Shown here: positions 3,001 through 6,000 of the stretch, piece by piece
How the letters are laid out: every line of letters begins with the position of its first letter
How positions within the stretch are numbered: the first letter of the stretch is position 1
Origin: a virus
Taxonomy: Duplodnaviria; Heunggongvirae; Uroviricota; Caudoviricetes
DNA: 24,832 nucleotides
IMG/VR virus record: IMGVR_UViG_2724679239_000003
Direction: 5' to 3' (one strand)
Made by a program: the position numbers

Positions 3001-6000
3001 TTCTTCAGTACGCTACGGCAAATGTCATCGACGTTTTTATCCGGAAACTGCTGTCTGGCTTTTTTGATTTCAGAATTAGCCTGACGGGCAATGCTGCGAA
3101 GGGCGTTTTCCTGCTGAGGTGTCATTGAACAAGTCCCATATCGGCAAGCATAAGCACACAGAATATGAAGCCCGCTGCCAGAAGAGTGCATTCAGTGGTT
3201 GTCATACCTGGTCTCTCTCATCTGCTTCTGCTTTCGCCACCATCATTTCCAGCTTTTGTGAAAGGGATGTGGCTAACGTATGAAATTCTTCGTCTGTTTC
3301 TACTGGTATTGGCACAAACCTGACTCCAATTTGAGCGAGGCTATGTGCCATCTCGATACTCGTTCTTAACTCAACAGGAGATGTTTTGTGCATACAGCCC
3401 CCCGTTTATTATTTATCTCCTCAGCCAGCCGCTGTGCTTTCAGTGGATTTCTGATAACAGAAAGGCCGGGAAATACCCAGCCTCGCTTTGTAACGGAGTA
3501 GACGAAAGTGATCGCGCCTACCCGGATATTATCGTGAGGATGCTTCATCGCCATTGCTCCCCAAATACAAAACCAATTTCAGCCAGTGCCTCGTCCATTT
3601 TTTCGATGAACTCCGGCACCATCTCGTCAAAACTCGTCATGTACTTTTCATCCCGCTCAACCACGACATAATGCAGTCCTTCACGTTTCATACGCGGGTC
3701 ATAGTTGGCAAAGTACCAGGCATCTTTTCGTGTCACCCACATGCTGTACTGCACCTGGGCCATGTAAGCCGACTTTATGGCCTCGAAACCACCGAGCCGG
3801 AACTTCATGAAATCCCGGGAGGTAAACGGGCATTTCAGCTCAAGGCCGTTGCCGTCACTGCATAAACCATCGGGAGAGCAGGCGGTGCGCATACTTTCGT
3901 CGTGATAGATGATCGGGGATTCAGTAACATTCACGCCGGAAGTAAACTCAAACAGGGCTCTGGCGTCGTTCTCGTACTGTTTTCCCCAGGCCAGCGCCTT
4001 AGCGTTAACTTCCGGAGACACACCGGTGCAAACCTCAGCAAGCAGGGTGTGGAAGTAGGACATTTTCATGTCAGGCCATTTCTTTCCGGATCGGGGTTTT
4101 GCTATCACGTTGTGAACTTCTGAAGCTGTAATGACGCCGAGCCGTAATTTGTGCCACGCATCATCCCCCTGTTCGACAGCTCTCACGTCGATCCCGGTAC
4201 GCTGTAGGATAATGTCCGGTGTCATGCTGCCACCTTCTGCTCAGTGGCTTTCTGTTTCAGGAATCCAAGAGCTTTCACTGCCTCGACCTGTGTCAGTTCT
4301 GACGATGCGCGAATGTCGCGGCGAAATATCTGGGAACAGAGCGGCAATAAGTCGTCATCCCATGTTTTGTCCAGGGCAATCAGCAGAGTGTTAATCTCCT
4401 GCATGGTTTCATCGTTAACCGGAGTGATGTCGCGTTCCGGCTGACGTTCTGCAGTGTATGCGGTATTTTCGACAATGCGCTCGGCTTCATCCTTGTCATA
4501 GATACCCGCGAATCCGAAGGCCAGACGGGCACACTGAATCATGGCTTTATGCCGTAACATCCGTTTGGGATGCGACTGCCACGGCCCCGTAATTTCTCTG
4601 CCTTCGCGGGTTTTGAATGGTTCGCGGCGGCATTCATCCATCCACTCGGTAACGCAGATCGGATGATTACGGTCCTTGCGGTAAATCCGGCATGTGCAGG
4701 ATTCATTGTCCTGCTCAAAGTCCATGCCATCAAACTGCTGGTTTTCATTGATGATGCGGGACCAGCCATCGACGCCCACCACCGGAACGATGCCGTTCTG
4801 CTTATCAGGGAAGGCGTAAATTTCTTTCGTCCACGGATTAAGGCCGTACTGGTTGGCGACGATCAACAATGCGATGAACTGCGCATCGCTGGCATCACCT
4901 TTAAATGCCGTCTGGCGAAGAGTGGTGATCAGTTCCTGTGGGTCGACAGAATCCATGCCGACACGTTCAGCCAGCTTCCCTGCCAGCGTTGCGAGTGCTG
5001 TACTCATTCGTTTTATACCTCTGAATCAATATCAACCTGGTGGTGAGCAATGGTTTCAACCATGTACCGGATGTGTTCTGCCATGCGCTCCTGAAACTCA
5101 ACATCGTCATCAAACGCACGGGTAATGGCTTTTTTGCTGGCCCCGTGGCGTTGCAAATGATCGATGCATAGCGATTCAAACAGGTGCTGGGGCAGGCCTT
5201 TTTCCATGTCGTCTGCCAGTTCTGCCTCTTTCTCTTCACGGGCGATCTGCTGGTAGTGACGTGCCCAGCTCTGAGCCTCAAGACGATCCTGAATGTAATA
5301 AGCGTTCATGGCTGAACTCCTGAAAATGGCTGTGAAAATAGCGCCCGCGAAATGCCAGGCTGATTAGGAAAACAGGAAAGGGGGTTAGTGAATGCTTTTG
5401 CTTGATCTCAGTTTCAGTATTAATATCCATTTTTTATAAGCGTCGACGGCCTCACGAAACATCTTTTCATCGCCAATAAAAGTGGCAATAGTGAATTTTG
5501 TCTGGATAGCCATGAGTTTTTTATCCATTTTTGGGGACTCCTGGCTGATTAAGTATGTCGATAAGGCGTTTCCATCCGTCACGTAATTTACGGGTGATTC
5601 GTTCAAGTAAAGATTCGGAAGGGCAGCCAGCAACAGGCCACCCTGCAATGGCATATTGCATGGTGTGCTCCTTATTTATACATAACGAAAAACGCCTCGA
5701 GTGAAGCGTTATTGGTATGCGGTAACGCCGCACTCAGGCGGCCTTGATAGCCATATCATCTGAATCAAATATTCCTGATGTATCGATATCGGTAATTCTT
5801 ATTCCTTCGCTACCATCCATTGGAGGCCATCCTTCCTGACCATTTCCATCATTCCAGTCGAACTCACACACAACACCATATGCATTTAAGTCGCTTGAAA
5901 TTGCTATAAGCAGAGCATGTTGCGCCAGCATGATTAATACAGCATTTAATACAGAGCCGTGTTTATTGAGTCGGTATTCAGAGTCTGACCAGAAATTATT

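What the first reader, a model, noticed from the sequence alone, without database searches (positions are those of the whole stretch)
5521..5664. cIII is 8 residues shorter than lambda cIII because of a changed kil overlap
cIII ends at ...PGVPKNG followed by TAA, whereas lambda continues SNTYGYPD. The substitutions that create the stop also alter the start of kil (MDKKL versus lambda MDQTL), so the overlap is 8 nt rather than 32 nt. The central region that I recall as sufficient for cIII function is intact, so this is probably a functional natural variant.
Basis: partly seen in the sequence, partly recalled or inferred. Interest (0 to 1): 0.22.

Follow-up and report, generated by a model that had tools for sequence, protein, structure and literature searches.

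The report
Common short allele of phage cIII
The 46-residue cIII gene with an 8-base overlap onto kil is real, but it is an ordinary allele already annotated in public databases, carried by roughly one in five lambda-like prophages; lambda's own 54-residue form looks like the derived one.

Summary
On the minus strand, cIII (5661..5521) encodes 46 residues ending ...PGVPKNG-TAA. kil starts at 5528 (MDKKL...), so the overlap is ATGGATAA, 8 nt. Lambda has 54 residues and a 32-nt overlap.

One C>A change (5522) creates the stop and also makes Kil Q3K. Kil T4K (5518) is a separate change downstream.

The allele is not unusual. It made up 26/120 IMG/VR loci, 23/86 metagenome loci and 324 of 1,900 allele-typed places in 5,426 complete E. 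coli genomes. RefSeq already annotates identical proteins (cIII WP_001198858.1, Kil WP_000358700.1). Phages HK629 and ev099 carry it.

Every divergent cIII lineage examined that sits upstream of a lambda-type kil has the same ATGGATAA junction. The short form is therefore probably ancestral and lambda's tail a stop-loss extension.

Function is inferred, not tested. Residues 1-46 equal lambda's, including the essential 14-37 region. The Pfam domain (residues 2-43) and the cIII thermoregulator RNA are complete. 46-residue forms show purifying selection (pN/pS about 0.24). The Kil changes lie in or beside an experimentally dispensable N-terminus.

Verdict: real, ordinary, already known, low interest.

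The parts
5521..5661 (-). cIII coding sequence, 46 codons plus TAA (FtsH-inhibitory lysogeny factor, short allele)
   Evidence: ORF and translation. Pfam PF02061 Lambda_CIII at 106 bits, profile positions 1-42 of 42. Identical to RefSeq WP_001198858.1 in E. coli 214-4.
5385..5528 (-). kil coding sequence, 47 codons plus stop (MDKKL... variant of the lambda FtsZ/ZipA-dependent division inhibitor)
   Evidence: Pfam PF06301 Lambda_Kil at 69.9 bits. PHROG 3924, full length. Identical to RefSeq WP_000358700.1.
5521..5528 (-). cIII/kil overlap ATGGATAA (8 nt; lambda has 32 nt)
5522..5522 (-). The single C>A difference from lambda that turns cIII codon 47 TCA (Ser) into TAA and kil codon 3 CAA (Gln) into AAA (Lys)
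   Evidence: Alignment with lambda and ev099. Allele survey.
5514..5518 (-). Further differences downstream of the new stop: 5518 C>A (Kil T4K) and 5514 T>C (Kil L5 synonymous; would be Tyr>His in the old cIII frame)
   Evidence: The CTC variant was not found in 206 sampled loci or in 5,426 E. coli genomes.
5497..5499 (-). Position of lambda's cIII stop codon, here AAA (TAA lost; synonymous ACT>ACA in kil Thr10)
   Evidence: All 157 long alleles keep TAA here. Only short alleles have lost it: 4 of the 49 surveyed, plus the window and ev099, all of the MDKKL haplotype.
5538..5542 (-). AGGAG Shine-Dalgarno-like motif for kil, 9 nt upstream of its ATG, lying inside cIII codons Gln-Pro-Gly-Val
   Evidence: Read directly from the sequence. 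An equivalent purine-rich motif sits in the same cIII codons in P22, SE1, PSP2-22, and the Erwinia and Yersinia phages. Its role as a ribosome-binding site is inferred.
5616..5674 (-). Lambda cIII thermoregulator / alternative-structure mRNA element spanning the cIII start
   Evidence: Rfam RF01804 at 88.5 bits (gathering score 50), model positions 1-59 of 59. Sequence identical to lambda.
8874..9170 (+). cII gene (context): encodes the FtsH substrate that CIII protects
   Evidence: Pfam PF05269 Phage_CII at 113.7 bits.

Best explanation
This is an ordinary, functional pL-operon cIII-kil module carrying the common short cIII allele. CIII is a small FtsH inhibitor that protects CII. Its active part is the amphipathic helix at residues 14-37, and the conserved family domain ends at about Pro43. 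What follows Pro43 is whatever the cIII reading frame spells across the 5' end of the downstream gene until a stop turns up. That gives 0 extra residues with an ATGA junction (Erwinia and Yersinia phages), 3 with ATGGATAA (this window, HK629, several Salmonella and E. coli lineages), 7 in SE1 and 9 in P22 (both 20-nt overlaps), and 11 in lambda. So the tail is a by-product of overprinting on kil, not a functional module. The window's 46-residue CIII should inhibit FtsH like lambda's. The nucleotide that makes the stop necessarily gives Kil Lys3 instead of Gln3, in an N-terminal segment that is dispensable for Kil activity. The ATGGATAA / Kil-MDK state is shared by all divergent lineages examined that carry lambda-type kil, so it is most likely ancestral, and lambda's 54-residue CIII is a stop-loss (TAA>TCA) extension to the next in-frame TAA. 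Shown here: the sequence facts, the allele frequencies, domain completeness, the conserved junction in divergent lineages, and purifying selection. Inferred: retained FtsH inhibition, neutrality of the tail, and the direction of change.
For: Sequence and lambda comparison. Allele frequency: 26/120 IMG/VR and 23/86 metagenome loci are short. In E. coli complete genomes the short alleles occupy 248 + 76 places and the long alleles 1,107 + 469. The exact 46-aa CIII and the exact MDKKL Kil are each recorded on at least 1,000 contigs and are named CIII and Kil by NCBI. PGAP annotates both with the 8-nt overlap. Pfam Lambda_CIII is 42 positions long (residues 2-43); the short form scores 106.1 bits against 105.4 for lambda. 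Residues 14-37 are reported as essential and sufficient (PMC1838920). The Rfam thermoregulator is intact and cII is present. Tail and overlap series of 4, 8, 20 and 32 nt. Family alignment with conservation ending at NQPGVP. Divergent cIII lineages P0009, P0011, P0021 and PSP2-22 all have ATGGATAA plus Kil MDK(S/T)L. 46-aa forms compared across lineages give pS 0.55 and pN 0.13, ratio 0.24. All 44 short alleles with a lambda-type 5' end have an intact 46-codon ORF. Downstream of the new stop, two of the window's three changes are synonymous in kil but would be Tyr>His and stop-loss in the old cIII frame, as expected if only kil is read there. Kil lacking its first 5 residues is still active, and HK629 Kil' (HK629 Kil without its first 5 residues) is active and ZipA-dependent (PMC11762379). 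HK629, an isolated lambdoid phage, carries the 46-aa cIII.
Against: There is no experimental measurement of the 46-residue CIII (FtsH inhibition, half-life, lysogenisation frequency), and I found no paper addressing it. The Kornitzer result was read only second-hand. The long allele is still the majority (73-83%) among lambda-like sequences, so some benefit of the tail, for example on CIII stability against FtsH, cannot be excluded. The polarity argument rests on a handful of outgroup lineages in a highly recombinogenic region; three long alleles paired with HK629-type 37-aa Kil show that recombination occurs here. The pN/pS estimate covers only 46 codons and is partly confounded by mRNA-structure constraints at the 5' end.
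Confidence: 0.85

Rival explanations
1. The stop is a by-product of selection acting on kil. Either Kil Lys3 (and Lys4 here), or the shorter 8-nt overlap that places cIII termination 5 nt past the kil AUG and so alters termination-reinitiation coupling and kil dosage, is what matters; the cIII truncation is a neutral passenger.
For: The stop-creating base and Kil Q3K are the same nucleotide. kil's AGGAG lies inside cIII codons, and a predicted hairpin pairs it with kil codons 4-7 in all four alleles folded, which would make kil initiation depend on ribosomes translating cIII. MDK is the Kil start in all divergent lineages examined.
Against: The first 5 residues of Kil are dispensable for activity (PMC11762379). 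Predicted accessibility of the kil initiation region is almost the same in short and long alleles (0.49-0.55). The hairpin shows no covariation, and in L243 one pair becomes an A-C mismatch. No expression data exist. This rival is compatible with the main explanation rather than exclusive of it.
Confidence: 0.2
2. The short allele is a nonsense mutation that inactivates or weakens cIII, that is, a decaying gene in defective prophages.
For: It is formally a premature stop relative to the lambda reference. Several GenBank phage records do not annotate cIII when it is short.
Against: The essential 14-37 region and the whole Pfam domain are retained. The allele is present in 296 genome matches among complete E. 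coli genomes and in isolated phages HK629 and ev099. All 44 surveyed short alleles with a lambda-type 5' end keep an intact 46-codon ORF. The same end is conserved across lineages with pS about 0.55 but pN about 0.13. The regulatory RNA element is intact.
Confidence: 0.05
3. Sequencing or assembly error in an A-rich tract (CCCCAAAAATGGATAAAAAAC).
For: The junction contains homopolymer runs. The window's exact CTC haplotype was not found elsewhere.
Against: The differences are substitutions, not indels, and both reading frames stay intact. The same TAA allele occurs in hundreds of independent assemblies. The unique base (5514) is a synonymous kil change unrelated to the stop.
Confidence: 0.01

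Closest known systems
Bacteriophage lambda cIII / kil (54-aa CIII, 47-aa Kil, 32-nt overlap)
   Same: Same position in the pL operon (ea10 - cIII - kil - gam - bet - exo). CIII residues 1-46 are identical. The cIII 5' UTR and thermoregulator are identical. Kil is identical except Q3K and T4K.
   Different: cIII stops after Gly46, lacking SNTYGYPD. The overlap is 8 nt rather than 32. Lambda's stop position now reads AAA.
E. coli prophage allele in RefSeq: CIII WP_001198858.1 and Kil WP_000358700.1 (e.g. strain 214-4), and phage ev099 (LR597635)
   Same: Both protein sequences are identical. The ATGGATAA junction and the lost downstream TAA are the same. This MDKKL haplotype was found in 76 of 5,426 complete E. 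coli genomes.
   Different: The window has CTC rather than CTT at kil Leu5 (synonymous), and GTC rather than GTA at cIII Val42 compared with ev099.
Phage HK629 cIII / kil (Lambdavirus HK629)
   Same: 46-aa CIII (one difference, I36V), an ATGGATAA junction and a Kil that starts MDK. An N-terminally truncated form of HK629 Kil (Kil') was shown experimentally to inhibit division in a ZipA-dependent way (PMC11762379).
   Different: HK629 Kil is the 37-aa ...EAYRKWRSK form with Thr4. This MDKTL haplotype is the commoner short allele (220 E. coli genomes).
P22 c3 / kil and other cIII homologues (SE1, PSP2-22, Erwinia Midgardsormr38, Yersinia vB_YenM_06.16-1)
   Same: All have the conserved core ...ESLL(E/D)RITRKLR.GWKRL..ILNQPG.P followed at once by an overlapping downstream gene whose ribosome-binding site lies in the NQPG codons.
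   Different: Tail lengths and overlaps differ (4, 8 and 20 nt). P22, SE1 and the Yersinia phage carry a downstream gene unrelated to lambda Kil.

Membership tests
Lambda_CIII (Pfam PF02061; FtsH-inhibitory lysogeny factor CIII) | Significant full-length match to the family profile | tested here: met
   106.1 bits against a cut-off of 25.7, residues 2-43 on profile positions 1-42 of 42. PHROG 550 at 101.9 bits.
Lambda_CIII (Pfam PF02061; FtsH-inhibitory lysogeny factor CIII) | Intact 24-residue amphipathic region (lambda residues 14-37), reported as essential and sufficient for activity | tested here: met
   Residues 1-46 are identical to lambda. The functional statement comes from PMC1838920, which cites Kornitzer et al. 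1991.
Lambda_CIII (Pfam PF02061; FtsH-inhibitory lysogeny factor CIII) | Location in the leftward early operon upstream of kil and the recombination genes, in a phage that also encodes CII | tested here: met
   The order ea10 (DUF2528), cIII, kil, gam, RecT/bet, YqaJ/exo, with cII at 8874-9170.
Lambda_CIII (Pfam PF02061; FtsH-inhibitory lysogeny factor CIII) | Inhibits FtsH (HflB) and stabilises CII, raising lysogenisation frequency | not testable with these tools
   Needs lysogenisation or in vitro proteolysis assays with the 46-residue form.
Lambda_thermo (Rfam RF01804, cIII mRNA alternative-structure element) | Match to the covariance model above the gathering score, spanning the cIII start codon | tested here: met
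   88.5 bits against 50, model positions 1-59 of 59, window 5616-5674 minus strand.
Lambda_Kil (Pfam PF06301; FtsZ/ZipA-dependent division inhibitor) | Significant match to the family profile, with the predicted helix-turn-helix core (residues 4-38) retained | tested here: met
   69.9 bits against a cut-off of 27.6. The only differences from lambda Kil are Q3K and T4K. The core definition is from PMC11762379.
Lambda_Kil (Pfam PF06301; FtsZ/ZipA-dependent division inhibitor) | Blocks Z-ring assembly in a ZipA-dependent manner | not testable with these tools
   Shown for lambda Kil, lambda Kil lacking its first 5 residues, and HK629 Kil' (PMC11762379). Not shown for the MDKKL variant.

The most novel reading that the evidence does not exclude
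The two junction types could be functionally distinct alleles kept side by side at roughly 20:80 in E. coli prophages. The 8-nt junction would couple kil translation more tightly to cIII translation and yield a CIII without the 8-residue tail. Lambda's stop-loss extension would loosen the coupling, or change how fast FtsH degrades CIII, shifting lysogenisation frequency or host filamentation. The textbook lambda cIII would then be a derived, atypical form of the gene.
Probability: 0.1. Interest if true: 0.3.

Novelty: already known. Interest (0 to 1): 0.08.

Why it matters
It matters little for biology at large. It shows that the lambda reference is not the only form of cIII, and probably not the ancestral one, and that the C-terminal tail of CIII is set by where a stop falls in the frame overprinting kil.

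There is a practical point for annotation. A 46-residue cIII should not be flagged as truncated or as a pseudogene. Some phage records (ev099, HK629) omit it and instead call a 79-89-residue kil-frame ORF 'Kil'.

Tried and rejected
- **Wasted scan.** A first IMG/VR pattern scan had one N too many and found nothing. It was corrected.
- **tblastn could not separate the alleles.** I tried a 23-aa C-terminal query against GenBank phages. tblastn aligns through the stop, so a short MDKTL-type allele and the long SNNYGYPD variant both score one mismatch. No GenBank-phage allele frequency is given for that reason.
- **No E. coli match for the window's exact junction.** A 37-nt megablast of that junction against E. 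coli genomes found nothing. The later 34-nt queries worked, so this reflects the window-specific CTC base, not masking.
- **Protein-cluster search gave no frequencies.** The 5.8-billion-protein search listed many small clusters but not the main one. Exact look-up capped at 1,000 contigs for every form. Frequencies were therefore taken from DNA scans.
- **Species-dereplicated genome scan was uninformative.** It returned mostly lambda DNA contamination in unrelated taxa, which says nothing about family diversity.
- **NCBIfam has no model hit for CIII or Kil**.
- **Kornitzer et al. 1991 is not held**, so it is cited second-hand through PMC1838920.
- **Readthrough or frameshifting to restore a long CIII: rejected.** In the window the old frame after the stop has diverged (Asn>Lys, Tyr>His) and its stop is lost.
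- **A regulatory hairpin over the kil ribosome-binding site: not supported.** It is predicted in all alleles, but it is weak (-9 to -11.5 kcal/mol), shows no covariation, and accessibility barely differs between alleles.

Full report
**1. What is in the window**

All features below are on the minus strand.
- cIII runs from the ATG at 5661-5659 to TAA at 5523-5521. It has 46 codons: MQYAIAGWPVAGCPSESLLERITRKLRDGWKRLIDILNQPGVPKNG.
- kil starts at the ATG at 5528-5526 and ends at 5385. It has 47 codons: [47 protein letters not shown].
- The two genes overlap by ATGGATAA, 8 nt.
- In a lambda record (OR974322) cIII is annotated as 165 nt (54 residues, ending KNGSNTYGYPD) and kil as 144 nt, with a 32-nt overlap.

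A three-way alignment of the window, lambda and phage ev099 shows the first 164 aligned bases identical; these run from the cIII leader to codon 41. The differences cluster at the junction.

- The cIII ATG is at 5661, not 5664.
- A single C>A change (window 5522) both turns Ser47 (TCA) into TAA and turns Kil Gln3 into Lys. The second Kil change, T4K at 5518, lies downstream of the stop and has nothing to do with creating it.

Downstream of the new stop the window has two more changes. 5514 T>C and the change at 5497-5499 are synonymous in kil, but in the old cIII frame they would be Tyr>His and loss of lambda's stop. That pattern is expected if only the kil frame is read there.

**2. Context**

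The surrounding genes are a standard lambdoid leftward early operon:
- integrase (1-1074)
- YqaJ/exo (3545-4225)
- RecT/bet (4222-5007)
- gam (5013-5309)
- kil, then cIII
- ea10/DUF2528 (5734-6102)
- a Nun-like ORF and an N-like ORF
- a CI-type repressor (7842-8492)
- cII (8874-9170)

Rfam finds the lambda cIII thermoregulator element complete at 5616-5674 (88.5 bits). The regulatory apparatus of cIII and its functional partner cII are both present.

**3. How common the short form is**

I scanned with a pattern that fixes the conserved flanks and leaves the junction free.
- Metagenome contigs: 86 loci, of which 23 have TAA.
- Combined: 49 of 206, or 24%.

All 44 short alleles with a lambda-type 5' end have an intact 46-codon ORF. 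The five others have a different cIII N-terminal type.

Allele-specific 34-mers were then searched in 5,426 complete E. coli genomes. Every 28-base seed in these queries must span the variable base, so hits are allele-specific.

| Allele | Genomes | Places |
|---|---|---|
| Short, Kil MDKTL | 220 | 248 |
| Short, Kil MDKKL | 76 | 76 |
| Long, Kil MDQTL | 942 | 1,107 |
| Long, Kil MDQTI | 451 | 469 |

That makes 324 of 1,900 typed places short, or 17%.

The exact 46-residue CIII and the exact MDKKL Kil of the window are each recorded on at least 1,000 public contigs and are named CIII and Kil by NCBI. In E. coli 214-4, PGAP annotates them as WP_001198858.1 and WP_000358700.1 with the same 8-nt overlap, and both proteins are identical to the window's. 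Two isolated phages carry the short form: ev099, the window's nearest GenBank relative in this region at 99.2%, and HK629.

The only thing unique to the window is the synonymous CTC at kil Leu5, which I found nowhere else.

**4. What the tail is**

Across cIII homologues, conservation stops at ...LNQPGVP. The Pfam model is only 42 positions long, covering lambda residues 2-43, and the 46-residue form scores slightly higher than lambda's (106.1 against 105.4 bits).

Beyond Pro43 the sequence depends on the downstream gene:

| Phage or lineage | Overlap | Extra residues after the conserved Pro |
|---|---|---|
| Erwinia and Yersinia phages | ATGA, 4 nt | 0 |
| This window, HK629, PSP2-22 and others | ATGGATAA, 8 nt | 3 |
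| SE1 | 20 nt | 7 |
| P22 | 20 nt | 9 |
| Lambda | 32 nt | 11 |

In every case the purine-rich motif that would serve as the downstream gene's ribosome-binding site lies in the Gln-Pro-Gly codons of cIII. In the window it is AGGAG at 5542-5538, 9 nt before the kil ATG.

The simplest reading is that the tail is an overprinting by-product: cIII is translated until the first stop that the kil 5' end happens to provide in that frame.

**5. Direction of change**

I examined four divergent cIII lineages that sit upstream of a lambda-type kil:
- P0009-type (83% identical to the window's CIII)
- P0011-type from Salmonella (80%)
- P0021-type, with a different N-terminus
- Salmonella phage PSP2-22

All four have ATGGATAA, a CIII ending in Asn-Gly, and a Kil beginning MDK(S/T)L. 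The TCA/Gln3 state occurs only in sequences close to lambda. It is almost always paired with the lambda-type Kil C-terminus, whereas TAA/Lys3 occurs with both Kil types.

By outgroup parsimony the short form is ancestral, and lambda's 54-residue CIII arose by stop loss, reading on to the next in-frame TAA. All 157 long alleles retain that TAA. The only sequences seen to have lost it are short alleles of the MDKKL haplotype: four of the 49 surveyed, plus the window and ev099.

This is an inference. The region recombines, as shown by three long alleles paired with the 37-residue Kil, so I put it at about 65-70%.

**6. Is the short form functional?**

This was not tested directly anywhere I could find. 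The indirect evidence is consistent:
[quoted passage not shown] 1991, as cited in PMC1838920), and they are identical to lambda's.
- Two 46-residue forms that differ at 55% of synonymous sites differ at only 13% of non-synonymous sites, a ratio of 0.24.
- None of the surveyed short alleles has decayed further.
- For Kil, deleting the first five residues leaves activity (reduced), residues 4-38 form the predicted helix-turn-helix core, and HK629 Kil', which lacks those five residues, is active and ZipA-dependent (PMC11762379).

Q3K and T4K therefore lie in or at the edge of a dispensable segment.

**7. Possible effect on kil expression**

A hairpin that pairs the kil AGGAG with kil codons 4-7 is predicted in all four alleles folded (-9.0 to -11.5 kcal/mol). 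The window's CTT>CTC change converts a G-U pair to G-C. Mean accessibility of the initiation region is nearly the same in all alleles (0.49-0.55), and a divergent lineage breaks one pair without compensation.

Whether an 8-nt overlap couples kil translation to cIII differently from a 32-nt overlap is an open but minor question.

**8. Verdict**

The feature is ordinary and already catalogued. The one mildly instructive point is that the textbook lambda cIII is probably the derived, extended form. Interest is low.

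Noticed in passing
window 6881-7225 (-) and 7222-7557 (-): A Nun-like transcription termination factor ORF (PHROG 5632, 237.6 bits, full length) lies immediately downstream of, and overlaps by 4 nt, an N-like antiterminator ORF (PHROG 271). Neither has a Pfam hit. So this phage has both an N-like and a Nun-like gene. Phage 434, the best overall match to the window, is annotated with a 'Nun C-terminal peptide-containing protein'.
   Followed up: partly
window 17698-18007 (+): A cluster of four tRNA genes, Met(CAT), Arg(TCT), Thr(TGT) and Gly(TCC), in what looks like the late-regulatory region of the prophage.
   Followed up: no
window 21292-21490 (+): A full-length match to Rfam RF02111 (IS009 small RNA), 179 bits.
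   Followed up: no
L001 (ev099) 1587-1856; L248 (HK629) 415-654: GenBank records of phages with the short cIII leave cIII unannotated. They instead call a 79-89-residue ORF in the kil frame, starting inside cIII, 'Kil protein'. The same long kil-frame ORF exists in the window (5385-5654, 89 aa). It is an annotation artefact to be aware of.
   Followed up: partly
L214-L231 (genome-contig scan): cIII sequences 100% identical to lambda's sit on small or roughly 48.5-kb low-coverage contigs in assemblies of unrelated organisms (Shewanella, Enterococcus, Pseudomonas, Bradyrhizobium, Kitasatospora, Oceanobacillus and others). This is almost certainly lambda control or marker DNA contamination in the assemblies.
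   Followed up: no
window 5511-5546 (-): A predicted hairpin pairs AGCCAGGAGT (containing the kil Shine-Dalgarno motif) with ACTCATGGCT (kil codons 4-7). It is predicted in lambda, HK629 and the E. coli 214-4 allele too. The window-specific T>C at 5514 strengthens it by turning a G-U pair into G-C. No covariation support was seen.
   Followed up: partly
window 5514: The window's exact junction haplotype (CTC at kil Leu5) was absent from all 5,426 complete E. coli genomes and from all 206 sampled viral and metagenomic loci. The source is therefore a slightly divergent relative of the ev099 / E. coli 214-4 type.
   Followed up: partly
IMG/VR loci (summarised): A few contigs carry cIII frameshifts that fuse cIII to the kil frame (91- and 101-residue products) or truncate it at 29 residues. 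All are on long-allele backgrounds. They are likely sequencing errors or decaying prophages.
   Followed up: no
window 6298-6636 (-): A 112-residue ORF between ea10 and the Nun-like gene has no Pfam hit and matches only PHROG 3054 of unknown function. It occupies the place where lambda has ral, orf28 and sieB.
   Followed up: no
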